Assembly (NCBI GenBank): GCA_965231125.1
Contig: OZ246414.1
Coordinates: forward strand, 757,440-821,439
Source of the DNA: an uncultured Gammaproteobacteria bacterium
Lineage (GTDB): Bacteria > Patescibacteriota > Microgenomatia > Woykebacterales > RBG-16-39-9b
Length of the DNA stretch: 64,000 nt
Direction: 5' to 3'
Shown: piece after piece, positions 42,585 to 55,883 of the stretch
Layout: every line of letters begins with the position of its first letter
How positions within the stretch are numbered: position 1 is the stretch's first letter
The notes under the pieces: model-generated
Seen by the model: the letters and a program-made list of their open reading frames with translations, nothing else
Told to the model about the DNA's origin: nothing
The model's database searches: none
Program-made: the position numbers and the translations under genes

Positions 42585-43670
42585 CTAGCGGTTCAGGGAA
42601 AAATTTCCGGCGCCTTGCGATTTTACTTTACCTTTTATCTCCATTAAAGAAATTAGGGAACCGATTTTTGCAGTGGGAAAGCCAGAGGCTCGAGCAATCT
42701 CGTCGATATGAACTACTCCACTTTCTAAAAGATCAATGATCTTTTGTTCCTCTTCGCTGTCCCCTTTTATTTCTTTTGATTCTGAATTCTTCATTCTCAT
42801 TTCTAAATTCAGCTCCTCAAGTATGTCATTAACGTTCGTAACAAGTTTTGCTCCTTGTTTTATTAAGGAAGACGGCCCGGCGGAAAACTTGGAATAAATT
42901 GGTCCGGGCACGGCAAAAACTTCCCGGCCTTGCTCTCCCGCAAGTCCAGCGGTGATTAAGGACCCAGAATCCTCCCCTGCCTCAGTCACGAGAACTCCGA
43001 GAGATAAACCGCTGATAATACGGTTGCGGGCGGGGAAATTCCCTGGTCGCGGATCCATACCAAGAGGAAACTCACTTATGACGGCGCCATAACCGCCTTC
43101 AATTTCTTTTGCCAAAGCCTCGTTTTCACGTGGATAAACCCGATCGACACCACCCCCAAGAACCGCAATGGTTTTGCCGCTGTTCCCAACTGCCACTCGG
43201 TGCGCGTGCGAATCCACCCCCAGCGCCAGCCCAGAAACTATGGTGAAACTCGCGGCGACTAAATCGCGAACCAAAACTTCAGTCACTTCCCGACCGTAAC
43301 CGGTCATCTTCCTCGTCCCCACAACACCAATAGTTTTACCCTCTTTTGGCAACTGCCCGCGGACGTACAAAACTGGTGGAGGATCCGCAATTTCTTTCAA
43401 AAGTTTTGGGTAAGTTTCATCTTCAATTGTTACCAAACTGATTTTTTTATCAATAATTTCTTCTAGATACTTTTCGGGATTAGTGTTCTTGCGGAAATTT
43501 AAAAAGGTTTCGGCGGTCTTGGGCCCGAGAATTTTTACAAGATTTCTTTCATTTTCTTCCCAAACGGCTCGGGCACTTTTGGCAAATTTCAAAAGAATTT
43601 TAAATTTCGCTGGCCCAATCCCAGGAGCAGCCGCCAAAGCAACGTAATATGGTAAATCTGTTTTTATCAT
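42585..43670 (-). CDS. dprA: DNA processing protein DprA (Smf)
   Basis: 361 aa. Rossmann-like core GVVGTRKMTGYGREVTE...IVSGLALGVDSHAHRVA. Its C-terminal wHTH resembles that of DprA. Confidence 0.85.
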   Translation of the reverse strand: MIKTDLPYYVALAAAPGIGPAKFKILLKFAKSARAVWEENERNLVKILGPKTAETFLNFRKNTNPEKYLEEIIDKKISLVTIEDETYPKLLKEIADPPPVLYVRGQLPKEGKTIGVVGTRKMTGYGREVTEVLVRDLVAASFTIVSGLALGVDSHAHRVAVGNSGKTIAVLGGGVDRVYPRENEALAKEIEGGYGAVISEFPLGMDPRPGNFPARNRIISGLSLGVLVTEAGEDSGSLITAGLAGEQGREVFAVPGPIYSKFSAGPSSLIKQGAKLVTNVNDILEELNLEMRMKNSESKEIKGDSEEEQKIIDLLESGVVHIDEIARASGFPTAKIGSLISLMEIKGKVKSQGAGNFSLNR

Positions 43671-43888
43671 TTCAGAAAGTTAATGCATTCGGCAGTTGTA
43701 AGATATGTTTGTTTAATTATGCTGTTCAAAGTGCCTCTCTTTAGAGGTTTATTGTGGAAGGGTAAGGTGACCCTTAGTTTATCTTTTTTGTAAAGTCTAT
43801 GGCTTCCTTTTTGCCTGACAAAGCTAAAACCGGCAGAAAGTAAAACTTTTTCTGCCTCCCTTGGCTTAACTTGCGGCGTTTTGGTCAT
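43667..43888 (-). CDS. hicA: HicA-family toxin (mRNA interferase)
   Basis: 73 aa, ...LLSAGFSFVRQKGSHRLYKK.... Overlaps hicB by 4 nt. Confidence 0.7.
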   Translation of the reverse strand: MTKTPQVKPREAEKVLLSAGFSFVRQKGSHRLYKKDKLRVTLPFHNKPLKRGTLNSIIKQTYLTTAECINFLK

Positions 43889-44124
43889 GCTTCAATTTCG
43901 ATAGGAGAGACTACTACTGGCTCTTGCTCGCTGGGGATTTTCTCATTGCTTGCTCTTAAATCATCTAAGTAAAGCGTGGCGGCTTCTTTTATGTTTTTTA
44001 ATGCGTCCTCAAAAGTTTCGCCCTCAGAAATACATCCAGGCAATGCTGGTATAGAGACTGCATAACCACCATCTTCACTGGCCTCAAAGACCGCCGTATA
44101 TTTAAAAACCTTTTCATTCCTCAT
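43885..44124 (-). CDS. hicB: HicB-family antitoxin (UPF0150)
   Basis: 79 aa, ...YTAVFEASEDGGYAVSIPALPGCISEGETFEDALKNIKEA.... Confidence 0.7.
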   Translation of the reverse strand: MRNEKVFKYTAVFEASEDGGYAVSIPALPGCISEGETFEDALKNIKEAATLYLDDLRASNEKIPSEQEPVVVSPIEIEA

Positions 44125-44194
44125 GTAAGCAAAGAATATATTATTGGAAAATTTTAGTCAAGAAAATTTAGTTAGCTAATCTAACAACCTAATA

Positions 44195-45331
44195 CTACCT
44201 ATCCACCGCATCTGCACCAACATTGACAGTACCAGAGACGGTTTGTCCGGAGGTAGGGTTAGTTATGTTAACAGTTGGTGCAAGAGTATCACCAGCTGCT
44301 GGACAAGTAAATCCTGCCGCATTGAGGGCTCCACAGGCATCAAGCCTTCCCCAGCCATAAGTTGAATCCCAACCAGGTGTTCCTAGATCCACGGCACTGT
44401 TGTAGATTGCCTGGACAGCAGCAGCTGGTGAGACTCCTTTGGAAAGTAAGAGCCCCAGCACACCAGACACGAGGGAGGAAGCCGGATACGTACCTGAGAC
44501 ATAACCATAGCCTCCAAAGTTTGTCGCAGCCATAATGTTAACACCCGGCGCCGTCAGGTCAATCGCTGCGCCTCGGCCCGAGAACGAGAGAACGCTATCT
44601 GTCTGGTCGGTAGCACCGACAGCCACAACGTTGGCTAGACGGGCCGGATAGGCAACAGTGTAGTCAGCGTTGCCGGTTGGCGCCACAACAATTACGCCTT
44701 TGCTGACGGCGTAGCTGACCGCTGCCTCTAGTTCAGGCAAAGTCGTGTCATACCCCCGGGTAACGATAACATCGGCGCCATGGTCCGTCGCCCAAGTGAT
44801 GCCTTCGGCAAGGTCAGTTAGGGTACACGTATTGGTAGATTCGACACATACTGTTACCGGCATAATCTTGCAGTTCCAACAGACTCCGGCTATGCCGATG
44901 CTGTTATTAGTGGCGGCAGCAGCTACCCCCGCCACCGCGGTTCCTTGATTGTAGCCTGTGCCTCTGTCGTCGGTATCACCACCGCTGACGGTGTTGATTC
45001 CGGGTACCAGCTTCCCCGCTAGGTCCGGGTGTTCCTGATCGACCCCGGTGTTGAGGACGGCGATGACTACGTCGCTAGTACCCGTTGTGATGTCCCAGGC
45101 AGCTGGTGCCCGGATCTTGTCAAGAGCCCACTGGTACCCAGCTTGAAAGTAGGGGTCGTTCGGTGTGGTCGCGGCTCTAGAGGTTGGTTCTCGACTCTGT
45201 TGGACTAAAGTAACGGTGAAAGGGATAGATAAGAAAATGATTAGAGTACCAATAATACTCAAGAGATGTCTTTTGTCTTTTAGATTAATTTCTTCTTTTA
45301 GGTAACTCATCTGGGCAAGCACTCTCATCAA
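44195..45331 (-). CDS. subtilisin-like (S8) pseudo-protease, exported, with shared N-terminal anchor and truncated Ig-like C-terminal tail
   Basis: 378 aa with an S8 fold (VIAVLNTGVDQEHPDL...NQGTAVAGVAAAATNNSIGIAGV...SGTYPASSLVSGVLGLLLS). The catalytic Asp/His/Ser positions read N/A/Y. The N-terminus is identical to that of the gene at 52696-54177. It ends PTVNITNPTSGQTVSGTVNVGADAVDR. Confidence 0.75.
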   Translation of the reverse strand: MMRVLAQMSYLKEEINLKDKRHLLSIIGTLIIFLSIPFTVTLVQQSREPTSRAATTPNDPYFQAGYQWALDKIRAPAAWDITTGTSDVVIAVLNTGVDQEHPDLAGKLVPGINTVSGGDTDDRGTGYNQGTAVAGVAAAATNNSIGIAGVCWNCKIMPVTVCVESTNTCTLTDLAEGITWATDHGADVIVTRGYDTTLPELEAAVSYAVSKGVIVVAPTGNADYTVAYPARLANVVAVGATDQTDSVLSFSGRGAAIDLTAPGVNIMAATNFGGYGYVSGTYPASSLVSGVLGLLLSKGVSPAAAVQAIYNSAVDLGTPGWDSTYGWGRLDACGALNAAGFTCPAAGDTLAPTVNITNPTSGQTVSGTVNVGADAVDR

Positions 45332-45360
45332 GTAAATTATATACCTAGTTAATTATCCGT
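45126..45360. repeat. 235-bp exact duplication, copy 1 (3' tail of metzincin gene + 17-nt spacer + first ~68 codons of S8 gene)
   Basis: Identical by eye to 53972-54206. Confidence 0.85.
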
Positions 45361-47334
45361 CGCACTAACCCCCACGTTAACTGTCCCCGAAACGGTTTGG
45401 TTGTTGGTTGGATTAGTGATGTTAACTGTGGGAGGAACGGTATCTCCACCCGATGCGAGGACTCCATAGCTAATCGTTTTTGAGCTAAAACTATTTGAGT
45501 TGGAGCCGTTCGTCGCGGTCACAATTGCGTCGTAAATATTACCGACGATGGCGCTGGCCGGTGAAGTGAGCGCCAGGGTTGAAGTGCTGGTTGCTCCCGG
45601 AGCCAATGAAAGTAGTATATTGGGCGTGAAACTAGCCGTAAAACCGATTTGCAGCAGATAATATAACGAGAAGGTTGAAGAGCCGCACTCGGGGCTATCA
45701 TTATTAGTAACCGTCACGGAATAGTTTAAAGTTGATCCGGCTTCACCCCAGGCAATTGTCGGCGAGACTACCATTGTTGGAGGCACTCTAGAGCAACCGA
45801 CGACCGTGGGGATTTGGATATCAAGACTAACTTGGCTGGCGCTGATCGAGGCAATTTGGACTGTGATTCCTTTGTCGCTATCCTCAAAGACGCTGCCGAC
45901 TTTTAATTGCGCATCTGGAAATTTGGTCGATGGTGAGGCGTCAATTAACTGAGTGTCTCCGCCACTAGCAGATTTTGGAGCGTAGTGGATCAAAACGCCG
46001 GACAGCTCGGGTCGGTACTCAAAATAAAGCCAGTTAATGATGTTACCGCCAGCGGTTTTGTCGCGCGGAATCTTGATGATTTTTGGACCACTCGACCCGT
46101 AATAATCACTGAGCGTATAAGTACCGCTTGAGCCGACCTGAAGGCTATCACCAGAAACAAAAAAGAACATTTTTTCTTTGTGATAAGCATTGTGTTGGTT
46201 ATTGCTACCTCCCATAATTGAGTACCAATCACCATATTCATCTGAAGTACAGCCACTAGTTTTGATGCTGACCCCGCTGCAGTCATAGTAATTGGCGTGT
46301 AAAGCTCCAAAATTGTGCCCGAGTTCATGACCGACAATGTGTAAACTAAAGTTGGTCGCGCCATTTATCCAAGAAGTACCGCCGCCTTGAACACTACTAA
46401 GAGTCGCCAACCCACTAAAACCACAGTCGCTCATATAAGGAAAAACTACCATTAATTTTCGATAGGCAGCCAAGTTTTCACCCGCGGCGGTAGCCGCTTG
46501 AGTGGCTAGAGAGTAAATTTGCGAAGTATTACAGGTTGCAGGCAGGTTGACAGTGTAACCGGCTGCTTTGCCAGAAAAGCGCATCTTGCCGTAGGAGTTA
46601 TCTTGATAAAAAGTGCTGACCTGGGAAAAAACAACCGATTGAGCACTAGCTACGCTAACAGTATTATTTAAAACCATCACCAAAATTGTTTGATCCAGTA
46701 CCCCCAAGACTGCGCCTTTTACCTGATCCTCCCCAGAGACTTTTTCGACCGCAACCTCTTGACCAATTTTAATACCGGAAACTTTTACCTCTTCGTTGGC
46801 CAAACTAATGAGGGCATCAACATTCTCCTGAGATGGGTAAAGGTTGAATCCAGTTCCGTTAGATTTTAATTTGTAGTAAAATCCTCCCTTTTTTCTCTCA
46901 AAATCATCCCAGTGGGAAACTCCCAGGTTTCCCTCTAGAGTAACCTGCTCTTCGGTATTGACTTGAATTTCAGAGGGTAAAATCCCCTTGGCTTTCTGAT
47001 CAAAGGCAACTCTTACTGCCAGGTCAGGATCTTTTTTAATTAAAGTGGCCATCTTCTCTTTTCTTTGCTCGGAAAGATCAACCATCTTTGCTAGCACTTG
47101 AGGTTTCCGATTGCTAGAAGATTCTCGGTATTTTGAATTTTCTTGAACGAGCTGCCTCGTTAATTGTAAAAGCAGTTCCTTGTCCGAAAGTATCGCAGCT
47201 CTACCGCTGGGTTCTCTTGAGCTCAAGGTCAAGACGACGGTGATTGGTATCGAAAGAAAGATAAAGAAAGTGGCCGCAAGGACAAGCAGATGTTTTTTAT
47301 TTTTTAAATCAACCGGTTCTTTTAGATGATTCAT
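45349..47334 (-). CDS. exported metzincin-type zinc metalloprotease with beta-sandwich (CARDB-like) domain and truncated Ig-like C-terminal tail
   Basis: 661 aa. The HEXXHXXGXXH motif HIVGHELGHNFGALHAN is intact. The N-terminal anchor KKHLLVLAATFFIFLSIPITVVLTLSSREPSGRAA belongs to the shared family. It ends PTVNITNPTNNQTVSGTVNVGVSATDN. Confidence 0.65.
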   Translation of the reverse strand: MNHLKEPVDLKNKKHLLVLAATFFIFLSIPITVVLTLSSREPSGRAAILSDKELLLQLTRQLVQENSKYRESSSNRKPQVLAKMVDLSEQRKEKMATLIKKDPDLAVRVAFDQKAKGILPSEIQVNTEEQVTLEGNLGVSHWDDFERKKGGFYYKLKSNGTGFNLYPSQENVDALISLANEEVKVSGIKIGQEVAVEKVSGEDQVKGAVLGVLDQTILVMVLNNTVSVASAQSVVFSQVSTFYQDNSYGKMRFSGKAAGYTVNLPATCNTSQIYSLATQAATAAGENLAAYRKLMVVFPYMSDCGFSGLATLSSVQGGGTSWINGATNFSLHIVGHELGHNFGALHANYYDCSGVSIKTSGCTSDEYGDWYSIMGGSNNQHNAYHKEKMFFFVSGDSLQVGSSGTYTLSDYYGSSGPKIIKIPRDKTAGGNIINWLYFEYRPELSGVLIHYAPKSASGGDTQLIDASPSTKFPDAQLKVGSVFEDSDKGITVQIASISASQVSLDIQIPTVVGCSRVPPTMVVSPTIAWGEAGSTLNYSVTVTNNDSPECGSSTFSLYYLLQIGFTASFTPNILLSLAPGATSTSTLALTSPASAIVGNIYDAIVTATNGSNSNSFSSKTISYGVLASGGDTVPPTVNITNPTNNQTVSGTVNVGVSATDN

Positions 47335-47335
47335 A

Positions 47336-49816
47336 TTATTGATCTACCGCATTGGCATTAACATTAACTGTACCAGAAACTGTTTGACCAGAGATAGGGT
47401 TAGTAAAATTCACGGTTGGGGCTTGAGTATCCGGTGCAGAATAGTTTAGTGGATTTTTGTAAATCATCACTCTTGGCCGGTTGATATCGGTGACATACAA
47501 ATTGTCAGAGCTATCAAAAGTAGCACCAAACGGCATCGAATAGTAATCGTCAAAATACCCGTCCGGCTGAGTTTTGTTCGGATCAAGAGGGTTTAAGTAA
47601 TAACCAAGGAAACGGCCTCCCACGTAACCGTTGTAGCCCGTCACCATATGATTTTGAGAGTCAAAAGCCACTTCCCAAGTGGCGTGTGCCTGGCCGACAT
47701 CAGGGTTTGGAGAACCATACCGTGGAAAAGTTTTGAAGGCAGTCTTATCAAAAATTACGCTGGTGCTGTCGCCAGGAAAATCGCTGGCGCGGAAAACCAA
47801 CAAGCGGAAATTTCCGCGAACCTCCAAGGAGTGGTCGGAAATGTAGGTGTTGCCAAAATTGTCGATCGAGACATGCCCAGGATAACACAAGTAGTTCAGG
47901 GGTGCTTCAACAGGCTTCGAATAAGTGCCGCCACGGTTACAAGCCGTCGAAGTAATATCTGCCTGGCCAAGGACAACATCAATCACAGGGCTGGTTAAAG
48001 GGTCTCGGATCCTAACAACCCGGCTATTGTCAGAATCTACTACCCAGAGAAAAAGCTTACCGCCAATTACCTGAGGCGCAAGTCCCATCAGGCCTTCATA
48101 GTCTTTTAAAACATCCATACTGCCCCCACCCAAAACCGGGATTGGGGCTCCCCCGCCGGCAACAGAGGCAATAGTTTTGATCAAAATTGGCGGTGCCTGG
48201 GTCGCGTCATAAACATAGATACCTTTGTAGGTCTTTGCCCAAACGCGGCCGCTGGCGTCGGCCTTGAGATTTTTTACAATGTTCATGTTGCAATCAATGG
48301 TATTAAAATCGGGCTGAATCAGCACAACATCGGCCGCCCTGCCGTTTGTTAAAGTTGTCAGATCGTTCCAGACCAAAATTCGACAGCCATCAGTCGCGAA
48401 GAGTTTATTGGCCGCAATCGCGACTCCGTGACCAACACCCATTCGTCGCTCATTAAATATTGTTTTGGAATCAAAAAGTTCCCGATCCCAACCACTGGCT
48501 TTGGTAAGAGGGTCCTTGATTAAAAGAACTCCCTGGGTAGGACTGGGAGCAACTAGGTTCCCATTTTTGGCTATTCCGGCACTTCCGGCCATTAGCTGGT
48601 TAGTGAATATATCATGCCTCAAGATTCCATCAAACCCATAAAGTTGTAGATGACCCCCGTTTGTTACCCAAATACCGCTATTCGCACTATCTACCTCAGA
48701 AACAAATCCACCTACACCAACAAAGACTGTGGCCACTCCGCCTATTGTTTGCTGGTCGGTGGTGAACTTTAAGATACGGGTGTTGCCACCGTCAGATACA
48801 TACAAATTGCCGCTGGGATCAAATCTTACTGAGTTGGGGTTAGCCATTTGGTTGATGGCGTTTCCGGGTTTGCCAGGCCCAGTCGTGAAGTTTGGCTGTC
48901 CAAGAACAACATCAGCTGTTTTTGAAATTGTCCCGTCAGCATTCTTTAGGAAACGCAGAACTCGATGGTTACCATTATCCGCCACCCAAAGGTTACCGCT
49001 TGGATCAAGGGCAACACCAGAACCAGAATTACCTGTATTGCTGTAGTCAACCAAACAGAGTGAAGAAGCTGAAGGTGTTGTACTAAGAATCCAAGCGTTC
49101 GTTTTGTTACAATAATTACCAGTAAAATTATCTTGACCAATGGCCTCATCGGCCACTTGATCATTCCAAGCATCATGGTAAATCAAAATCCGATGGTTTT
49201 CCGTATCGGGCACATAAAGGTTTCCACCTTGCGTGTACATACCGATGAAAGCCAGATTCTCAGCTGTGCTGAGCGAATCTTCTTTAACAAAACAAAGACT
49301 CGCGGCGCTGGCCGGGGCTCTGGTGGGATAGTTTTGAAAGCTACTATCTCCATTGCAGGCACTATAATCTGCCAAGTGGCCTTGCTGTCCAAAAACTTTT
49401 TCAGCCGAACAAGTATTGCCGGCAGGAATACAATTATCAAGGTTGAGGGCAATAATTCGACTCTCTCGCGTCGATTGCGCATAAAGTATTCCGAGTTTAG
49501 AAGTTGAATCAGACACTTCTCGATCAACCACCACACCTCCAGGCCGGTCAACCCACTGTGGGTTTACATAGCCCCTGGACAAAACATCCGTAAAATCCCT
49601 TCTTCCAATAATTACATCTGCCCACAAATCTCCAGCTACTCCCCTAATCCCAACGGCTTGAGTCTTGTAACCACGAAATTGGTAAACTAAGACAACTGTT
49701 AAGGGAATACTAATAAGGATGAGTATTGTGCCTGCTAAAGCTAGTAAATCCTTGGCAGTGTAAGGGGGGTTAATTGCTTGGCGGTACTTTTTAACTAGTT
49801 CTGAAACACTTTCCAC
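47336..49816 (-). CDS. exported NHL-repeat beta-propeller protein with shared N-terminal anchor and truncated Ig-like C-terminal tail
   Basis: 826 aa. NHL-type repeats (YVPDTENHRILIY, VADNGNHRVLRF, VSDGGNTRILKF, DSDNSRVVRI). Stop codon 1 nt from the metzincin start. It ends PTVNFTNPISGQTVSGTVNVNANAVDQ. Confidence 0.7.
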   Translation of the reverse strand: MESVSELVKKYRQAINPPYTAKDLLALAGTILILISIPLTVVLVYQFRGYKTQAVGIRGVAGDLWADVIIGRRDFTDVLSRGYVNPQWVDRPGGVVVDREVSDSTSKLGILYAQSTRESRIIALNLDNCIPAGNTCSAEKVFGQQGHLADYSACNGDSSFQNYPTRAPASAASLCFVKEDSLSTAENLAFIGMYTQGGNLYVPDTENHRILIYHDAWNDQVADEAIGQDNFTGNYCNKTNAWILSTTPSASSLCLVDYSNTGNSGSGVALDPSGNLWVADNGNHRVLRFLKNADGTISKTADVVLGQPNFTTGPGKPGNAINQMANPNSVRFDPSGNLYVSDGGNTRILKFTTDQQTIGGVATVFVGVGGFVSEVDSANSGIWVTNGGHLQLYGFDGILRHDIFTNQLMAGSAGIAKNGNLVAPSPTQGVLLIKDPLTKASGWDRELFDSKTIFNERRMGVGHGVAIAANKLFATDGCRILVWNDLTTLTNGRAADVVLIQPDFNTIDCNMNIVKNLKADASGRVWAKTYKGIYVYDATQAPPILIKTIASVAGGGAPIPVLGGGSMDVLKDYEGLMGLAPQVIGGKLFLWVVDSDNSRVVRIRDPLTSPVIDVVLGQADITSTACNRGGTYSKPVEAPLNYLCYPGHVSIDNFGNTYISDHSLEVRGNFRLLVFRASDFPGDSTSVIFDKTAFKTFPRYGSPNPDVGQAHATWEVAFDSQNHMVTGYNGYVGGRFLGYYLNPLDPNKTQPDGYFDDYYSMPFGATFDSSDNLYVTDINRPRVMIYKNPLNYSAPDTQAPTVNFTNPISGQTVSGTVNVNANAVDQ

Positions 49817-49869
49817 AGACAGTTGGGATAATTATCCCCTAACTAGCCCTGGATTGTCAAGCCACGGCC

Positions 49870-52251
49870 TTATGGCTTCACTGTTAATACAAGTCTCGGT
49901 GCGTAAGAGCTACCTTTTTCTTTTGAATAATAGACTGCCCCGTCGGAGGAGGTAGAGGTTACTCTTAAGCTTACAACCCCATCTTTAGTTATTTTTCCAG
50001 TTAGATTTATCGAATACCACTTCCCTGAGGAAACAGACCCCAACGAAGCCCACTTGGACCCTAAGGCGGGCCGGGTGTTCCAGGTCACCGTCTCCTCCTG
50101 CCAGGAAGTGGTTGTAGTTTTGTAGAAATAGCCACCCCGAACGGAGGGGTTCGTGCAGTAAATTTTTAGAACAGCACTTGTTACTGTGTTAGACCCCACG
50201 CCAGAAACCGAGAATTTCATAAGGAAGTTTCTGTAAGCGCTGTAATCGTCTATCAATGAGGTGGATGCACCATACTTAGTTGTTGGGTGGGTTTTATCAA
50301 TCGTGGCGTCATCAGCCGATCTTATGGTAAGAACCTTAAACACCTTATATGTTGCCTGGGCGGAGGCAGAGTAGGCTGGGTTGGAAGAATTAGTTGCAGT
50401 AGCACTTATTGTGTAGGAGCCTACTGCGGCCGAAGAGGAAGATGTAACTTTCAAGGTTGAAGTTGCAGCTGCCCCTGGAGCAAGACTCAATGATGTTGGT
50501 GTGAAGGAAGCAGACCACCCGGCTGGAATGGAACGCGTCAACGAAAAACTTGAACTACCACAGCCGTTGCTATCATTGTTAGTCACTGAAAAAGTGTAAT
50601 TTAGGCTGGTCCCAGCTTTACCAAACTGACTTGCGGGGATAAGGGACACCGTTGGATTTGCCCGGCTGCAAGCTAGCAGAGTTGTCACTGTCAATCCTAG
50701 CGAGGGATCAGAGACGTTGCTGGCGGCGTCGAAGGCTTGAACTGTGTAAACATAACGTGTATTTGGACTGACCGTACTATCACCAAAGGTGGTGGTGGTC
50801 ACGGTAGCGATACGCACCCCGTCGCGATTAACGTAGTAACCGGCGACCCCAACATTATCCGTTGAAGCATTCCAGGCAAGGTTTATTTGGTTAGCGGTAA
50901 CTAGTGTTGCTCTCAGGTTAGTTGGTATACTTGGCTTTTGGGTATCCGCCTGGTTTGGTGTAGTCACTGTGGCAGTATTGGACAAACCGGAAGTGTTTCC
51001 GGCAGCATCGCGCGCACTAGCGTTGTAATGGTAAGTAGTGTTTGGCAAGGCGCTTGTATCCGAGTATGAAGTAGTCGATGTTTGGGCAATTGTTACACCC
51101 TCACGGTTAATCAAATAGGCGGTAACACCAACATTATCTGTCGAAGGGCTCCAGGCTAAATCTACCCTTGTAGCCGAGATAGCTGTGGCGGTAAGGTTTG
51201 TGGGCGTAGTTGGAGGTATAGTGTCTAGCACTACATAAGTTGCGCTCGCGCTGGCTGTTTTGGTATTATCGACCTGGTTTGTTGCTTTAGCTGTAACTGT
51301 AAAATTACCGATGGCGGCGGAAGCAGACGAAGTGACCTTGAAAGTTGAGGTGCCGGCTGCCCCTGGAGCAAGACTCAATGATGTCGGTGTAAAGGTAGCG
51401 CTCCAGCCAGCCGGGATAGTTTGGGCTAAGGAAAATGTCGAGCTGGCGCAACTGGCACTGTCTTGGTTGGTCACGGAGAAAGTGTAGTTTAGACTAGTCC
51501 CAGGCCCACCAGATTGACTGGCTGGTGAAAGGGAGACCAGCGGGTTTGACCTGGTACAAGGAGCAACGTTATTGACATTCACAGAGACGGCTGCGGAGGT
51601 GGCTATATTCGCAGGATTTGCATTATCATAAGCTTTAGCAGAAAGAGTATGGCTGCCATTCGCTACGGTAGTAGAATCCCAGCTAGTACTGTAAGGAGAA
51701 GTTGTATCTGTACCAATCAGGGTGGTTGTATCGCGATAAAATTCAACCTTTTGAATACCAGCGGTATCGGAAGCATTAGCAGAAACTGTAACCGCTACCC
51801 CCGAAACTGTTGCACCGTTTGTGGGTGCGGTTACTGAAACCGACGGCGCGGTATTATCCACTGTAACCGTCGCTGAAGCTTGGCCGACATTAACTGGGCT
51901 GGCATTATCATAAGCTTTAGCCAGAATTGTATGAGACCCATCACCAATTGTTTTAGTGTCCCAAGAATAGTTGTAGGGACTAGTTGTATCAGTGCTCTTC
52001 AAGGCCCCATCAATGTAAAATTCGACTTTACTAACCCCGGTAGCTGCGGCTAAAACTTCCGCAATCAGCTTCCCCTCTTTTAGTTTTTTAATTGTAAGTG
52101 TCGGGTTGAGGGCTTTGTTGGTTTCTCTGCGCCCCTCACTTAAAAAGTTAGCAGCGACCAAAGACAATAAAATTACCGCCAGGAGAACTGCTAGACGGAG
52201 TCTTCTTTTTAAATTAACTTTTCCTTTTAATCTCGGCATCGGCAGATTCAT
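49870..52251 (-). CDS. exported multi-domain surface protein (Ig-like and fibronectin-III-like domains, duplicated beta-sandwich domain)
   Basis: 793 aa with a signal-like N-terminus. Two full Ig-like domains (...PSVSVTAPTNGATVSGVAVTVSANASDTAGIQKVEFY...). FN3-like segments (...LTATAISATRVDLAWSPSTDNVGVTAY...). An internally duplicated ~90-aa domain is also present in the metzincin. Confidence 0.6.
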   Translation of the reverse strand: MNLPMPRLKGKVNLKRRLRLAVLLAVILLSLVAANFLSEGRRETNKALNPTLTIKKLKEGKLIAEVLAAATGVSKVEFYIDGALKSTDTTSPYNYSWDTKTIGDGSHTILAKAYDNASPVNVGQASATVTVDNTAPSVSVTAPTNGATVSGVAVTVSANASDTAGIQKVEFYRDTTTLIGTDTTSPYSTSWDSTTVANGSHTLSAKAYDNANPANIATSAAVSVNVNNVAPCTRSNPLVSLSPASQSGGPGTSLNYTFSVTNQDSASCASSTFSLAQTIPAGWSATFTPTSLSLAPGAAGTSTFKVTSSASAAIGNFTVTAKATNQVDNTKTASASATYVVLDTIPPTTPTNLTATAISATRVDLAWSPSTDNVGVTAYLINREGVTIAQTSTTSYSDTSALPNTTYHYNASARDAAGNTSGLSNTATVTTPNQADTQKPSIPTNLRATLVTANQINLAWNASTDNVGVAGYYVNRDGVRIATVTTTTFGDSTVSPNTRYVYTVQAFDAASNVSDPSLGLTVTTLLACSRANPTVSLIPASQFGKAGTSLNYTFSVTNNDSNGCGSSSFSLTRSIPAGWSASFTPTSLSLAPGAAATSTLKVTSSSSAAVGSYTISATATNSSNPAYSASAQATYKVFKVLTIRSADDATIDKTHPTTKYGASTSLIDDYSAYRNFLMKFSVSGVGSNTVTSAVLKIYCTNPSVRGGYFYKTTTTSWQEETVTWNTRPALGSKWASLGSVSSGKWYSINLTGKITKDGVVSLRVTSTSSDGAVYYSKEKGSSYAPRLVLTVKP

Positions 52252-52262
52252 AAATTAATTTT

Positions 52263-52676
52263 TCATTTCACAACCACACTACCGTTAGTAGTTGGGTGGA
52301 GCTGATCGTGATACCCAAAAGTGCCACTCTTCTCAAACGTAAACGTGTAAATCTCGCCTTTTTTCAAAGGTTTTTTAGCATCAAATCCGGCAAGACCATT
52401 GTTGATCGGGTAAGGATTAGAGGCCGGCTGATGAGCCTTTGAGTCTTCATTAATCCAACCCACGGTTTCGCCCTTATTAATTAAAATTGTTTGGGGGTTG
52501 AAACCATTCTTGGTAATAGTTACGAAGGCGGTCGGTGCCGGCTTTTTGGGTAGTGCCGGGCCAAGCTTCAAATGACCTCTGGAAATTAATAGTGCAATAA
52601 TTAAAGCTAAACCGAGGATAATTACTACAACTAATTTTTGTTGTTTTTCCACTATTAAAATTATCTTATTTATCAT
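52263..52676 (-). CDS. small membrane-anchored cupredoxin-fold-like protein lacking Cys ligand
   Basis: 137 aa. N-terminal TM, then GETVGWINEDSKAHQP...YTFTFEKSGTFGYHDQLHP, reminiscent of the plastocyanin-like fold. No cysteine present. Confidence 0.35.
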   Translation of the reverse strand: MINKIILIVEKQQKLVVVIILGLALIIALLISRGHLKLGPALPKKPAPTAFVTITKNGFNPQTILINKGETVGWINEDSKAHQPASNPYPINNGLAGFDAKKPLKKGEIYTFTFEKSGTFGYHDQLHPTTNGSVVVK

Positions 52677-52695
52677 ATTAGGTTGTCAAGCTCAA

Positions 52696-54177
52696 TTACC
52701 TATCCACCGCATCTGCACCAACATTGACAGTACCAGAGACGGTTTGTCCCCCGGCAGGATTGGTGATGGTTACGCTTGGTGGTAAGGTATCTCCCCCACC
52801 AGTTACGTTAATTGGCAGGGTATCTGTGGCAAAAACTCCGGCTCTTTCAACTCTGACAGCAGCCAGATAGTTGCCGGCAGTCTGGTAGCTACAAAGGTCA
52901 TTAATCTGTTCTGGATTACTATCGGTGGTGAGGTTCGATTCATAAGTGCCATCGTTGGTACAGTCAAAGCGGTAGGTGATTCTGCCTATTGCAGTTCCAC
53001 CAACCGAGGCCTGAATGTCAACTCCATTGAGGGGGGCGGTGCCGGAAACCCCTGCTGATGAGAATGTTTGGCTTGAGAGTACTCTGCCTGAAAGTACAAC
53101 GGAGAGTGTTGGTGGTGGTGGTGGTGGTGGAGCTACACAGGCAAACCCGGCTTTGTTCAGAGCTCCACAGGCATCCAGCCTGCCCCAGCCATAAGTTGAA
53201 TCCCAACCGGCTGTTCCTAAATCTTTGGCTCCTTGATATAAAGCGTTAACAGCTGCAGTTGGTGAAACTCCTTTGGATAGCAGCAACCCCAGCACGCCAG
53301 CCACGTGCGCGGCTGCCAGCGTGTTTGTGGTGGCAACTGGGTAGTAGTACGGCACATGGCCAGTTGACATGATGACCTCGCCCGGCGCTGTGATATCCAG
53401 TTCTGGGCCGCTGCCCGAGTAAGGCGAGATCATGTCGTTTTGATCGGTATTGCCCACCGCCACAACTCCAGGGTAGGCTGCCGGGTAGCGCGCAGGGTTA
53501 TCGACTAAAGCTAAAGGCGCCACCACGATAGCCCCCTTTCCGATAGCGTAGTTAACTGCCGATTCTAGTGCCGTAGATGCTCTGAGTCCCTGATGGACGA
53601 AGAGAACGGATGCTCCGTGGTCTACTGCCCAGCGAATCCCAGTGGCCGTGTAACCATAGTCGTTCAGATCGCTGCATGGAAAATCGCAAACTACGACCGG
53701 CATGAGTCCAACCTGCCAGTTGATCCCGGCGATGCCAACTCCGTTGTTGGTGCTTGCTCCGATAACGCCTGCCTCCATCGAGCCACTCCCGATCGAATCG
53801 TAAGTTGGGGTGCCCGGCTTGAGTACGTTGTATCCAGGGATCAAATTGCTGTTGCTACCGAGATCCTCATTGGGCGTGGTGGTTCCGACCCCGCTGCCGA
53901 GCAGGGCGACTATAACACTGCGGCTGCCGGTGGTGATGTCCCAGGCCTCGGGAGCGTGAATCTTGGTTAGGGCCCACTGGTACCCAGCTTGAAAGTAGGG
54001 GTCGTTCGGTGTGGTCGCGGCTCTAGAGGTTGGTTCTCGACTCTGTTGGACTAAAGTAACGGTGAAAGGGATAGATAAGAAAATGATTAGAGTACCAATA
54101 ATACTCAAGAGATGTCTTTTGTCTTTTAGATTAATTTCTTCTTTTAGGTAACTCATCTGGGCAAGCACTCTCATCAA
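52696..54177 (-). CDS. subtilisin-like (S8) pseudo-protease, paralog 2, with C-terminal extension, poly-Pro linker and truncated Ig-like tail
   Basis: 493 aa. The first ~68 residues are identical to 44195-45331. Catalytic positions read G/M/T. PPPPPPP linker. It ends PSVTITNPAGGQTVSGTVNVGADAVDR. Confidence 0.75.
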   Translation of the reverse strand: MMRVLAQMSYLKEEINLKDKRHLLSIIGTLIIFLSIPFTVTLVQQSREPTSRAATTPNDPYFQAGYQWALTKIHAPEAWDITTGSRSVIVALLGSGVGTTTPNEDLGSNSNLIPGYNVLKPGTPTYDSIGSGSMEAGVIGASTNNGVGIAGINWQVGLMPVVVCDFPCSDLNDYGYTATGIRWAVDHGASVLFVHQGLRASTALESAVNYAIGKGAIVVAPLALVDNPARYPAAYPGVVAVGNTDQNDMISPYSGSGPELDITAPGEVIMSTGHVPYYYPVATTNTLAAAHVAGVLGLLLSKGVSPTAAVNALYQGAKDLGTAGWDSTYGWGRLDACGALNKAGFACVAPPPPPPPTLSVVLSGRVLSSQTFSSAGVSGTAPLNGVDIQASVGGTAIGRITYRFDCTNDGTYESNLTTDSNPEQINDLCSYQTAGNYLAAVRVERAGVFATDTLPINVTGGGDTLPPSVTITNPAGGQTVSGTVNVGADAVDR

Positions 54178-54206
54178 GTAAATTATATACCTAGTTAATT
54201 ATCCGT
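53972..54206. repeat. 235-bp exact duplication, copy 2
   Basis: Identical to 45126-45360, including the promoter-proximal spacer and the 5' coding region. Confidence 0.85.
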
Positions 54207-54317
54207 TGCATTAACATTGACATTAACAGTTCCCGAGACGGTTTGTCCGGAGGTTGGATTGGTTATTTTGGCTGTCCAGTTGGTGAGAGCTGCGGAGTTA
54301 TTTTCTTCCATGGGCAT
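54195..54317 (-). pseudogene. orphan 40-codon remnant encoding only the shared Ig-like C-terminal tail
   Basis: Translates MPMEENNSAALTNWTAKITNPTSGQTVSGTVNVNVNATDN-stop. It sits 17 nt upstream of the S8 paralog start, the same spacing as metzincin to S8 copy 1. No upstream body remains; the guaA stop is 39 nt away. Confidence 0.45.
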
Positions 54318-54356: not shown

Positions 54357-55883
54357 TTATTCGTATTCTATCGTCGCTGGCGGTTTTTGGGTTATGTCGT
54401 AAACCACCCGGTTTACACCTCTTACCTCATTAACAATCCTACTCGCGATTTTTTCTAAGACGTCTTGTGGAATTTTGAACCAATCAGCTGTCATCCCATC
54501 TACACTAGTTACTGCCCGCAAACTAATTATATACTGATAGGTTCTCGCATCCCCCATCACCCCAACCGTTTTCACTGGTAAAAGAGCAGCGAAGGCTTGC
54601 CAGATTTTGTTGTAAAGCTTGACCGTCTTAAGCTCTTCAATATAAATTGCATCCGCTTGTCGTAAAATCTCAAGACGATCTTGCGTTATTTCGCCTAAAA
54701 CGCGAATTGCCAGCCCCGGTCCGGGAAAAGGATGACGAAAAAGTTCTTCTTTGGAAAGACGCAGCTGCAAGCCCAATTGCCGCACTTCATCTTTATAAAA
54801 AGCAGCTAGCGGCTCAACGATTTTAAACTTAAGTTTCTCCGGCAAAGTTAGATTGTGATGACTTTTAATTTTAGCGGCCTGCTTGGATGAAGCCGCGGAC
54901 TCAACCCTATCTGGATAAATTGTTCCTTGGGCAAAAAAACGAATTTTTTCCTTTTTTTCCAAAGTCTTAGCTACATCTTCAAAAACTTTTATGAAGGTGT
55001 GCCCGATTATTTTTCTTTTACCTTCCGGATCCACCACCCCCTTCAACCTCTTTAGAAAGAGGGCTGACGCATCCACCTTAAGAAAATGTTTGAAACCTCG
55101 TTTCTCGTATATTTTTTCTACCTCGGCAGCTTCATTTTCGCGCAAAAGCCCGTGATCGATAAAAACCGCATGGAGCCTGTCACCGATTGCTTTGTGAAGA
55201 AGATTTGCGGCAACAAGCGAATCCACGCCACCAGAAACGCCAATTAAGACTTTCTCGCCACCAACTTCGCTCCTCAATCTCTCAACTAGCTGACCCTTTA
55301 GATCTTCGATTCGCCAATTCTTTTTTGCGCGACAGATACCAAAAACAAAATTTTTTAAAATCCTCGTACCGTTTTTAGTGTGAACAACTTCCGGGTGAAA
55401 TTGTATTGCATAAATTTTTTTATCAATATTGGAAAATCCACTGACAGGACAAGAAATGCTACTAGCAATAATTTCGAATTTTTGGGGAACTTTTTTTACC
55501 AAATCCCCATGGGAAAGCCAGACAATTTGGCTCTCTTCAAGACCTTTAAACAGCGGGTCGTTCGTCTTCACCTTAACAACTTCTTTTCCGTATTCCCCTT
55601 TTCCCCCAGCACCCACTTGCCCACCCAAGTTTTTTGCGAGAGCCTGTAAACCGTAACAGATACCAAGTATAGGTATGTTGAGACTGAGAATTGAGTTGGA
55701 GAAGGACGGGGCGCCCTTTTCATAAACTGAGGCTGGTCCACCGGAAAGAATTATACCCTCCAAATTATCTATTGTTGATAAAGAGTCTTTAGGGCTAAAA
55801 ATTTCAGCCGCAACATGAAGCTCACGGATACGACGGGCAATAAGATGAGTATACTGACTACCAAAATCGACAACAGCAATCAT
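54357..55883 (-). CDS. guaA: GMP synthase (glutamine-hydrolysing)
   Basis: 508 aa. MIAVVDFGSQYTHLIARRIRELHV. GATase GICYGLQ. ATP-PPase SGGVDS. C-terminal dimerisation domain ending ...IEYE. Confidence 0.9.
   Translation of the reverse strand: MIAVVDFGSQYTHLIARRIRELHVAAEIFSPKDSLSTIDNLEGIILSGGPASVYEKGAPSFSNSILSLNIPILGICYGLQALAKNLGGQVGAGGKGEYGKEVVKVKTNDPLFKGLEESQIVWLSHGDLVKKVPQKFEIIASSISCPVSGFSNIDKKIYAIQFHPEVVHTKNGTRILKNFVFGICRAKKNWRIEDLKGQLVERLRSEVGGEKVLIGVSGGVDSLVAANLLHKAIGDRLHAVFIDHGLLRENEAAEVEKIYEKRGFKHFLKVDASALFLKRLKGVVDPEGKRKIIGHTFIKVFEDVAKTLEKKEKIRFFAQGTIYPDRVESAASSKQAAKIKSHHNLTLPEKLKFKIVEPLAAFYKDEVRQLGLQLRLSKEELFRHPFPGPGLAIRVLGEITQDRLEILRQADAIYIEELKTVKLYNKIWQAFAALLPVKTVGVMGDARTYQYIISLRAVTSVDGMTADWFKIPQDVLEKIASRIVNEVRGVNRVVYDITQKPPATIEYE

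What the first reader, a model, noticed from the sequence alone, without database searches (positions are those of the whole stretch)
44195..54177. Both subtilisin-family genes are predicted pseudo-enzymes
Aligned to the subtilisin BPN' landmark blocks, both genes have substitutions at all three catalytic positions. In 44195-45331 the Asp block reads VLNTGV (D to N), the His block reads NQGTAVAG (H to A) and the Ser block reads GTYPASS (S to Y). In 52696-54177 the same positions are Gly, Met and Thr. The whole catalytic triad is substituted in both paralogs while the S8 fold is conserved. The adjacent metzincin keeps an intact HEXXHXXGXXH. This suggests the subtilase scaffolds have been repurposed, for example as binding modules or adhesins, rather than acting as proteases.
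Basis: partly seen in the sequence, partly recalled or inferred. Interest (0 to 1): 0.6.

Follow-up and report, generated by a model that had tools for sequence, protein, structure and literature searches.

The report
Two catalytically dead subtilase-fold secreted proteins
Two secreted subtilisin-like proteins of a small-genome, Kazan-like bacterium have lost every catalytic residue but are still kept by natural selection. They belong to a wider clade of 'dead' thermitase relatives, for which I found no published description, and they sit in a conserved cluster of cell-surface protein genes.

Summary
Both minus-strand genes (44195-45331 and 52696-54177) are thermitase-like S8 homologues, and their predicted subtilisin fold is confident (TM 0.94 to thermitase for S8a). 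Neither has a catalytic triad. The true equivalents are Asn/Gln/Tyr in S8a and Gly/Ser/Thr in S8b, and S8b has also lost the oxyanion Asn.

These are not decaying genes. The ten closest database homologues also lack the triad, each with different residues. In a rough tree, 33 of 33 tips under the S8a/S8b ancestor are dead. dN/dS between S8a and a 78%-identical homologue carrying the same Asn/Gln/Tyr is 0.18. Variability is concentrated in the active-site cleft, while the rest of the scaffold is as conserved as in active enzymes.

All dead members lack a prodomain: a signal or anchor peptide is joined directly to the mature domain. A Kazan bacterium has the same gene order, with two dead S8 genes, a cupredoxin-like gene and an Ig-rich protein gene.

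Subtilase pseudoproteases are already known (C. difficile CspC and CspA), so this is a new variant of a known kind. What the proteins bind or do is inferred, not shown. A conserved 30-residue half-Ig C-terminal tag shared by four unrelated proteins in the cluster is the most unusual side observation.

The parts
44195..45331 (-). S8a: 378-aa thermitase-like pseudo-subtilase (a more likely start is the ATG at 45310). Layout: leader/TM helix at residues 20-46, S8 domain at about 55-340, C-terminal tag at 347-378. Triad equivalents are Asn94 (45050-45052), Gln129 (44945-44947) and Tyr282 (44486-44488). The oxyanion Asn221 is kept.
52696..54177 (-). S8b: 493-aa pseudo-subtilase. NCBI calls the start at the ATG at 54156, giving P0004 (486 aa). 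It has the same leader, an S8 domain at about 55-345, a poorly modelled insert domain at about 350-462, and the C-terminal tag. Triad equivalents are Gly94 (53896-53898), Ser131 (53785-53787) and Thr286 (53320-53322). The oxyanion position is Leu224.
45349..47334 (-). Metzincin-like metallopeptidase (661 aa) with an intact HELGHNFGALH motif, the same type of leader and the same C-terminal tag.
47336..49816 (-). NHL-repeat beta-propeller protein (826 aa) with an N-terminal anchor and the same C-terminal tag.
49870..52251 (-). Large Ig-rich surface protein (793 aa) with Big_7 x2, NEW3 x2, fn3 x2 and CBM96/DNRLRE domains. It has an N-terminal anchor and no tag. It is a conserved neighbour of dead S8 genes in other loci.
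52263..52676 (-). Cupredoxin-like protein (137 aa) immediately downstream of S8b. In place of the amicyanin copper ligands Cys92 and Met98 it has Asp and Thr. The same adjacency is seen in the Kazan locus and in L099.
54195..54317 (-). 40-aa mini-ORF consisting almost only of the C-terminal tag, lying between guaA and S8b. It is probably the remnant of a former tag-bearing gene.
44195..44293 (-). C-terminal tag coding repeat (family D1). The other copies are at 45349-45447, 47336-47434, 52696-52794 and 54195-54293. The peptide PTVNITNPTxGQTVSGTVNVxxxAxD[RNQ]-stop corresponds to Big_7 profile positions 1-28 of 70.
45040..45339 (-). 5' leader repeat shared with 53886-54185 (90% identity over 300 nt; the first 180 coding nt are identical). 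This looks like a gene-conversion tract between S8a and S8b.

Best explanation
S8a and S8b are exported, non-catalytic proteins built on a thermitase-type subtilase scaffold. They belong to an old clade in which the catalytic His was lost. The Asp, the Ser, the oxyanion Asn and the substrate-binding strands then drifted, while the fold, its high-affinity calcium site and a clade-specific Cys pair stayed under purifying selection.

Shown:
- Loss of the triad.
- Retention of the fold (predicted).
- Selection acting after the loss.
- Absence of a prodomain.
- A conserved chromosomal cluster with an Ig-rich protein and a cupredoxin-like protein, plus beta-propeller and metzincin proteins that carry the same leader and/or the same C-terminal tag.

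Inferred:
- The leader is a Sec signal peptide or signal anchor. A possible signal-peptidase site is SRA|A, immediately before the thermitase-like mature N-terminus TPNDPYF.
- The proteins act outside the cell as structural or ligand-binding subunits of a surface assembly. The variable former active-site cleft is a candidate for a lineage-specific binding surface, and the shared C-terminal half-Ig tag is a candidate for the element that attaches them to partners.
For: Triad loss.

Fold:
- AF2 mean pLDDT is 90.3, and above 95 across the S8 domain of S8a.
- Foldseek to 1thm gives TM 0.94 and rmsd 1.5 A.
- The S8b S8 domain has pLDDT 90-98.

Maintained pseudoenzyme:
- The 10 closest of 120 homologues all lack the triad, with different residues (NQY, GSP, DSR, SVS, GAI, GNH, SE-, SQH). 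The other 110 are all D/H/S.
- About 35 further triad-less representatives occur among the top 150 of a search of 1.84 billion proteins.
- In the NJ tree the MRCA of S8a and S8b subtends 33 tips, all without a full triad and 32 without His.
- dN/dS is 0.18 (dS 0.77) between S8a and P0002, which share Asn/Gln/Tyr, so this divergence post-dates the loss.

Relaxation is local:
- Entropy at cleft positions is 2.36 bits in dead sequences against 1.60 in active ones. At other positions it is 1.52 against 1.70.
- Ca1-site Asn76/Asn77 are 97% conserved. Cys96/Cys102 are 97% in dead sequences against 7% in active ones.

No prodomain: Pfam finds only Peptidase_S8 plus a partial Big_7. Active relatives mostly carry PF22148.

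Synteny:
- Kazan locus L004 has dead S8, cupredoxin, an Ig-rich protein, then a second S8 with His->Leu.
- Big_7/fn3 proteins also neighbour dead S8 genes in L001 and L087.
Against: - No experiment or expression data.
- Export and signal-peptide cleavage were not tested with a dedicated predictor.
- The NJ tree is crude. The sequences were retrieved with a profile built from dead members, so monophyly could be inflated by sampling or long-branch attraction.
- One clade member keeps D/H/N and lacks only the Ser (P0136). A fragment with the same leader keeps D and H (P0013). Independent losses are therefore possible.
- The hypervariable cleft is equally compatible with no function at that site.
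- A binding partner has not been identified.
- The tag is predicted to be unstructured (pLDDT 55-72).
Confidence: 0.72

Rival explanations
1. The two genes are decaying relics: former proteases on their way to being lost, with no current function.
For: All catalytic residues are gone. Residues at those positions differ freely between homologues. A 40-aa tag-only mini-ORF next to S8b shows that gene remnants do occur in this locus.
Against: - The ORFs are full length with no frameshifts or stops, in two independent assemblies.
- dN/dS is 0.18 after the loss.
- Non-cleft positions are as conserved as in active enzymes.
- The clade and its gene neighbourhood are conserved across organisms that are about 55% identical.
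- The gene sits on a 915-kb contig, consistent with a small genome, and small genomes tend to shed unused genes (general knowledge).
Confidence: 0.05
2. They are still peptidases. Either the alignment is shifted or a non-canonical catalytic apparatus is used, as in sedolisins (Ser/Glu/Asp on the same fold) or a Thr nucleophile in S8b.
For: S8a keeps the oxyanion Asn. S8b has Thr at the nucleophile position. Sedolisins show that the fold can host another triad (general knowledge).
Against: - Three independent alignment methods and a 1.5 A structural superposition agree.
- There is no His in the His block of either protein.
- No replacement residue is conserved at any of the three positions across the clade.
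- The substrate-backbone-binding residue Ser125 is also relaxed: 96% conserved in active relatives against 35% in the dead clade.
Confidence: 0.03
3. They are regulatory pseudoproteases in the CspC/CspA sense. They would sense a signal or chaperone an active protease, here the neighbouring metzincin, rather than act as adhesins or structural subunits.
For: CspC and CspA are subtilase pseudoproteases that control an active protease (PMC7200643, PMC12880746). An intact metzincin with the same leader and tag lies next to S8a.
Against: - The metzincin is not a subtilase.
- The metzincin is absent from the sequenced part of the Kazan locus. The conserved neighbours there are the cupredoxin-like and Ig-rich proteins.
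- No prodomain is retained, unlike the Csp proteins.
- NCBIfam CspC and CspBA scores are far below their cut-offs.
Confidence: 0.1

Closest known systems
Thermitase / AK.1 protease (thermitase subfamily of peptidase family S8A)
   Same: - These are the closest sequence and structure relatives: 42% identity, TM 0.94, rmsd 1.5 A.
- The mature N-terminus TPNDPYF is the same.
- The Ca1-site residues are conserved.
- Relatives commonly carry a C-terminal Big_7 domain.
   Different: - All three catalytic residues are replaced, and in S8b the oxyanion Asn as well.
- There is no prodomain.
- The Big_7 domain is truncated to its first 28 positions.
Clostridioides difficile CspC and CspA subtilase pseudoproteases
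   Same: These are S8-fold proteins with a degenerate triad that are retained and functional as non-enzymes (PMC7200643, PMC12880746).
   Different: - The origin within S8 is independent. NF040808 scores 21 bits against a cut-off of 675, and NF040809 scores 34 against 1250.
- The Csp proteins keep a prodomain, are spore proteins of Firmicutes, and regulate the active subtilase CspB.
- Here the proteins are exported, lack a prodomain, and sit in a surface-protein cluster with no active subtilase in the 64-kb window.
Type VII secretion mycosins (TIGR03921)
   Same: This is the best NCBIfam match for both proteins. Mycosins are also membrane-associated S8 proteins.
   Different: - Scores of 158.6 and 123.2 bits are below the 278.75 cut-off.
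- Mycosins are active proteases.
- By my recollection mycosins are anchored by a C-terminal helix. Here the hydrophobic helix is N-terminal.
- No T7SS gene was seen among the ORFs scanned.
Dockerin-cohesin assembly of cellulosomes (functional analogy for the C-terminal tag only)
   Same: A short conserved C-terminal module is shared by unrelated exported proteins encoded next to a large multi-domain protein that lacks the module.
   Different: - There is no sequence relationship.
- The tag is the first two or three strands of a Big_7 Ig domain, not an EF-hand dockerin.
- No receptor domain has been identified and binding is untested.

Membership tests
Peptidase family S8 (subtilases), as homologues | Pfam PF00082 match above the gathering score, and a subtilisin alpha/beta fold | tested here: met
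   134.8 and 71.4 bits against a cut-off of 21.8. AF2 model against 1thm gives TM 0.94. The S8b S8 domain has pLDDT 90-98.
Peptidase family S8, as active peptidases | Catalytic triad Asp32-His64-Ser221 (BPN' numbering) | tested here: not met
   S8a has Asn/Gln/Tyr and S8b has Gly/Ser/Thr. The triad is 100% conserved in 242 active relatives.
Peptidase family S8, as active peptidases | Oxyanion-hole Asn155 | tested here: inconclusive
   Kept in S8a (Asn221) and replaced by Leu224 in S8b. It is Asn in 48% of the dead clade against 99% of active relatives.
Peptidase family S8, as active peptidases | N-terminal propeptide (I9 or PF22148-type intramolecular chaperone) removed by autoprocessing | tested here: not met
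   No prodomain family was hit. The leader helix at residues 20-46 is followed within 10 residues by the mature-domain start TPNDPYF. Most active relatives list PF22148.
CspC / CspA germination pseudoproteases | NCBIfam NF040808 or NF040809 above the cut-off | tested here: not met
   21.4 bits against 675, and 33.9 bits against 1250, for S8a. There was no hit for S8b.
CspC / CspA germination pseudoproteases | Partnership with an active subtilase (CspB) in a spore former | tested here: not met
   No other S8 homologue is present in the 64-kb window. The flanking genes are housekeeping genes of a small-genome bacterium. The rest of the genome could not be examined.
T7SS mycosin (TIGR03921) | Equivalog score above the cut-off | tested here: not met
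   158.6 and 123.2 bits against a cut-off of 278.75.
Big_7 bacterial Ig domain (for the C-terminal tag) | A complete 70-position domain above the gathering score | tested here: not met
   Only profile positions 1-28 or 1-29 match, at 17-21.5 bits against a cut-off of 24.1, and are followed directly by the stop codon. The relative P0008 has the complete domain at the same place.
Type-1 copper cupredoxins (for the neighbour 52263-52676) | His-Cys-His-Met copper ligand set | tested here: not met
   In the alignment to amicyanin, Cys92->Asp and Met98->Thr, while His53 and His95 are kept. The Kazan orthologue also has Asp and lacks the second His at that position.

The most novel reading that the evidence does not exclude
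The ~30-residue C-terminal half-Ig tag is a lineage-specific docking or sorting signal. It consists of Big_7 strands A-B followed by a stop codon. It is carried by the two dead subtilases, the metzincin and the NHL propeller here, and by a CAP-domain protein in a relative. Its peptide sequence is conserved even though synonymous sites are nearly saturated.

The proposed mechanism is that the tag completes or binds an Ig domain of the co-encoded Big_7-rich protein by beta-strand complementation. This would assemble a modular surface complex in Kazan-like CPR bacteria, in which the dead subtilases serve as variable-cleft binding subunits. It would be a cohesin-dockerin-like system built from a split Ig domain.
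Probability: 0.15. Interest if true: 0.75.

Novelty: new variant of a known kind. Interest (0 to 1): 0.45.

Why it matters
Pseudoenzymes on the subtilase fold are so far documented mainly by the C. difficile Csp germination proteins. This finding adds an independent and apparently much larger clade. There are at least 30 clusters at 50% identity, in CPR-like bacteria and in other uncultured bacteria. These proteins are exported, lack a prodomain, and remain under purifying selection with a hypervariable former active-site cleft.

For annotation, these proteins should not be counted as proteases in metabolic reconstructions of CPR genomes. Source names seen here range from 'serine protease' (the dead homologue P0007) to 'hypothetical protein' (P0005).

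For biology, small-genome bacteria of this radiation depend on surface proteins (general knowledge, not tested here). A conserved cluster of tagged surface proteins with two dead subtilases is a concrete candidate for attachment or host-interaction machinery. The shared tag offers a testable handle on how such proteins are assembled.

Tried and rejected
1. Recoding or an alternative genetic code as the reason the Big_7 domain stops after 28 positions. Rejected. The next gene starts 2-40 nt after each stop with its own leader. Long housekeeping ORFs are intact under code 11.
2. Strand complementation by the first Ig domain of the 793-aa protein. By eye that domain has its own A and B strands, so nothing obviously incomplete is available to be completed. 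Not tested structurally.
3. Profile search for the tag across 5.8 billion proteins. The second returned one relevant fragment, P0268.
4. DNA pattern scan of metagenome contigs for the tag. It gave 8 loci, of which only two were relevant: L095, a Kazan-type locus with two tag copies, and L099.
5. Genome-contig scan with the dead-clade alignment. It returned 80 loci, all with intact D/H/N/S enzymes at 47% identity or less. It recovered neither the source genome nor named dead relatives.
6. Exact look-up of S8b (P0004) found no encoding contig on record. The source organism is therefore inferred only from similarity and synteny to a Kazan bacterium.
7. P0013, a fragment with the same leader that keeps Asp and His, was checked as a possible active member nested inside the dead clade. 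It is about 50% identical to dead and active sequences alike, so it is uninformative.
8. Literature search for CPR plus subtilisin pseudoenzymes found nothing specific.
Full report
**1. What is at the coordinates**

The region 44195-54317 is a run of minus-strand genes between dprA plus a HicAB-like pair (42585-44125) and guaA (54357-55883). In the order of transcription it contains:
- a 40-aa mini-ORF (54195-54317);
- S8b (52696-54177);
- a cupredoxin-like protein (52263-52676);
- a 793-aa Big_7/NEW3/fn3/CBM96 protein (49870-52251);
- an NHL-repeat propeller (47336-49816);
- a metzincin-like peptidase with HELGHNFGALH (45349-47334);
- S8a (44195-45331).

The wider window carries housekeeping genes: PBP2, MreB/C, TopA, Mfd, DnaX and CysS. 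The cluster is therefore chromosomal. No other S8 homologue occurs in the 64 kb.

**2. Check of the observation**

Both proteins are clear S8 homologues. Pfam gives 5e-39 and 1e-19. phmmer against thermitase 1thm gives 8e-49 for S8a and 8e-35 for S8b.

Three alignment routes agree on the catalytic positions: phmmer pairwise alignments, MAFFT with subtilisin BPN' and 120 homologues, and an HMM alignment of 358 domains.
- S8a has Asn94 for Asp32, Gln129 for His64 and Tyr282 for Ser221. It keeps the oxyanion Asn (Asn221).
- S8b has Gly94, Ser131 and Thr286. One of the three alignments gives Asn at the Ser221 position because it places a one-residue gap differently. The oxyanion position is Leu224.

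The catalytic residue is the first His: BPN' His64, or thermitase His71 by direct count in the alignment. 'H to A' should therefore read H to Q, and 'Met' should read Ser. The Ala and Met sit at position 67, which is Ala in a third of active enzymes. Neither protein has any His in that block, so the conclusion stands.

AlphaFold models are confident across the S8 domain:
- S8a has mean pLDDT 90.3, above 95 in the domain.
- The S8b domain has pLDDT 90-98.
- The S8a model superposes on thermitase with TM 0.94 and rmsd 1.5 A.

Independent assemblies rule out sequencing artefacts. A JGI metagenome contig is 99.94% identical over window 45262-54206, which covers all of S8b but only the first ~70 nt of S8a. 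For S8a, the JGI protein P0001 reproduces residues 87-378, with the same Asn/Gln/Tyr and one substitution.

**3. Are these decaying genes or maintained pseudoenzymes?**

Among the 120 best homologues in a 5.8-billion-protein collection, the ten closest (45-100% identity) all lack the triad. Their residues differ: NQY, GSP, DSR, SVS, GAI, GNH, SE- and SQH. The other 110 are all D/H/S thermitase-like enzymes, usually with a PF22148 prodomain and a C-terminal Big_7 domain.

A profile of the dead sequences searched against 1.84 billion cluster representatives recovered about 35 more triad-less, single-domain proteins. Nearly all have a signal or anchor peptide fused directly to a TPNDP-type mature start.

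In a neighbour-joining tree of 282 domains rooted on BPN', the last common ancestor of S8a and S8b subtends 33 tips. All 33 lack a full triad and 32 lack the His. S8a and S8b lie on opposite sides of that clade, so they are old paralogues. The tree is crude and the sampling is biased towards dead sequences, so strict monophyly is provisional.

The most direct test is dN/dS between S8a and P0002. P0002 is 78% identical, comes from a different architecture with a Pro/Thr-rich tail, and shares the same Asn/Gln/Tyr. Over the S8 domain dN = 0.136, dS = 0.774 and the ratio is 0.18. Purifying selection has therefore acted on an already dead protein.

Column statistics show that relaxation is local:
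- Active-site and cleft positions have mean entropy 2.36 bits in the dead clade against 1.60 in size-matched samples of active relatives.
- All other positions have 1.52 against 1.70.
- Ser125 of the substrate-binding strand drops from 96% to 35%.
- The Ca1-site Asn76/Asn77 are 97% conserved.
- A Cys96/Cys102 pair (S8a Cys162/Cys169) is present in 97% of dead sequences against 7% of active ones.

**4. Context in other genomes**

The homologue P0005 comes from 'candidate division Kazan bacterium RIFCSPLOWO2_01_FULL_48_13'. Its locus has the same order: a dead S8, a cupredoxin-like gene, a Big_7/NEW3/fn3 protein, then a second S8 whose His64 equivalent is Leu and whose Asn155 equivalent is Gly. 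Big_7/fn3-rich proteins also flank dead S8 genes in two further metagenomic loci.

S8b is recorded on a 915-kb NCBI contig. Together with the Kazan similarity, this suggests a small CPR-type genome. The organism itself could not be named.

**5. Architecture shared by the cluster**

S8a, S8b and the metzincin begin with a conserved leader (LKDKRHLL..IFLSIP.TV.L..SREP.SRA). AlphaFold models it as a helix at residues 20-46. The NHL protein, the 793-aa protein and the 56124 gene product have related leaders.

S8a, S8b, the metzincin, the NHL protein and the mini-ORF all end in the same ~30-residue peptide, PTVNITNPTxGQTVSGTVNVxxxAxD[RNQ], followed by a stop. This peptide corresponds to positions 1-28 of the 70-position Big_7 domain. 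The relative P0008 has the whole Big_7 domain at that place, so the tag derives from a truncated Ig domain.

Among the five copies in the window, synonymous differences are near saturation (pS 0.60) while non-synonymous ones are low (pN 0.19). The peptide itself is therefore conserved, rather than the DNA being a recent copy.

The tag was found only in Kazan-like loci, not in 80 other bacterial S8 loci. One relative carries it on a CAP-domain protein that again precedes the cupredoxin gene. AlphaFold leaves the tag unstructured.

The first 180 nt of S8a and S8b are identical, and identity extends upstream into the preceding gene's tag. The rest of the two genes is 40-58% identical at the DNA level. 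This indicates gene conversion at the 5' junction.

**6. Most likely mechanism**

The supported part is that these are exported, non-catalytic subtilase scaffolds kept by selection. Their role is inferred: structural or ligand-binding subunits of a surface assembly, encoded together with Ig-rich, propeller and metallopeptidase proteins.

The cleft data argue against a common, substrate-like ligand. They are compatible with lineage-specific binding surfaces or with an unused cleft.

Three rivals were considered:
- Decay is contradicted by dN/dS and conservation.
- Cryptic activity is contradicted by the absence of any conserved replacement residues.
- CspC-like regulation of the neighbouring metzincin is possible, but the metzincin is not a conserved neighbour.

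**7. Comparison with what is known**

Subtilase pseudoproteases are established: C. difficile CspC and CspA sense germinants and control the active subtilase CspB (PMC7200643, PMC12880746). The present proteins work like these only in the general sense of being retained dead subtilases. They are not members of that family:
- NCBIfam scores are far below the cut-offs.
- They lack a prodomain.
- They arose within the thermitase-like group.
- They sit in a different cellular context.

The best NCBIfam hit, T7SS mycosin, is also below its cut-off. Full-text searches found no description of such a clade in CPR bacteria. That is absence of evidence within the searchable library only.

**8. Verdict**

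The pseudo-enzyme interpretation is supported and strengthened. The proposed binding function is untested.

Novelty is a new variant of a known kind, and interest is moderate (0.45). The half-Ig C-terminal tag is the feature most worth a dedicated follow-up.

Noticed in passing
window 44195-44293, 45349-45447, 47336-47434, 52696-52794, 54195-54293 (minus strand); also L001-L005, L095, L099: A conserved ~30-residue C-terminal tag (PTVNITNPTxGQTVSGTVNVxxxAxD[RNQ]-stop) ends four otherwise unrelated exported proteins: two dead S8 proteins, the metzincin and the NHL propeller. A relative carries it on a CAP-domain protein. The tag corresponds to the first 28 of 70 positions of a Big_7 Ig domain. 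The peptide is conserved although synonymous sites are nearly saturated (pS 0.60, pN 0.19). It was seen only in Kazan-like loci.
   Followed up: partly
window 54195-54317 (-): A 40-aa ORF between guaA and S8b consists almost entirely of the C-terminal tag. It looks like the remnant of a former tag-bearing gene, which suggests cassette-like turnover at the tag/leader junctions.
   Followed up: partly
window 45040-45360 and 53886-54206 (-): The 5' ends of S8a and S8b, including the upstream intergenic sequence and the last codons of the preceding tag, are 90-100% identical. The rest of the two genes is 40-58% identical at the DNA level. This indicates gene conversion or a recombination junction. 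An independent metagenome contig (L091) breaks at exactly these repeats.
   Followed up: partly
window 52263-52676 (-); L004 1990-2409: The cupredoxin-like protein downstream of S8b aligns to amicyanin, but it has Asp for the copper-ligand Cys92 and Thr for Met98. The Kazan orthologue also lacks the Cys. It may be a second 'dead' scaffold in the same operon. A tag-bearing gene immediately precedes the cupredoxin gene in three loci.
   Followed up: partly
S8a Cys162/Cys169 (window 44846-44848 and 44825-44827); BPN' positions 96/102: A Cys pair flanking the loop that lines the former S2/S4 side of the cleft is present in 97% of dead-clade sequences but in only 7% of active relatives. It is probably a clade-specific disulfide.
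   Followed up: no
window 43700-44125 (-): A small HicB-like/HicA-like toxin-antitoxin pair (assigned by eye from the translation) lies directly downstream of S8a. The Kazan locus has a PemK-type pair next to its dead S8 gene.
   Followed up: no
L091 4391-6870 versus window 47336-49816: In the near-identical JGI contig the NHL gene is called as two ORFs (569 + 260 aa), whereas it is one 826-aa ORF in the window. The two sequences differ by a single indel. This is either a population frameshift variant or an assembly error.
   Followed up: no
P0001 (JGI contig, 343 aa): One database protein joins a NADH-dehydrogenase subunit N-like N-terminus to S8a at residue ~87, with one substitution in the S8a part. 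It is most likely a chimeric metagenome assembly.
   Followed up: no
P0136, P0142, P0147, P0162 (dead-clade members without a CPR-type leader): Several triad-less relatives with ordinary signal peptides end in a Pro/Thr-rich linker and a short basic Cys-x(8-10)-Cys tail (for example CPAGKSKRRRC). This is a different C-terminal module on the same dead scaffold.
   Followed up: no
window 56124-58193 (-): Just beyond guaA lies another exported multi-domain protein (SBBP propeller repeats, Big_7, a dockerin-like segment and He_PIG). Its leader is of the same type as that of the NHL protein, and it has no C-terminal tag.
   Followed up: no
window 1-64000: Almost every ORF of 120 aa or more that is not nested inside a longer one is on the minus strand, and no tRNA gene was found in 64 kb.
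   Followed up: no
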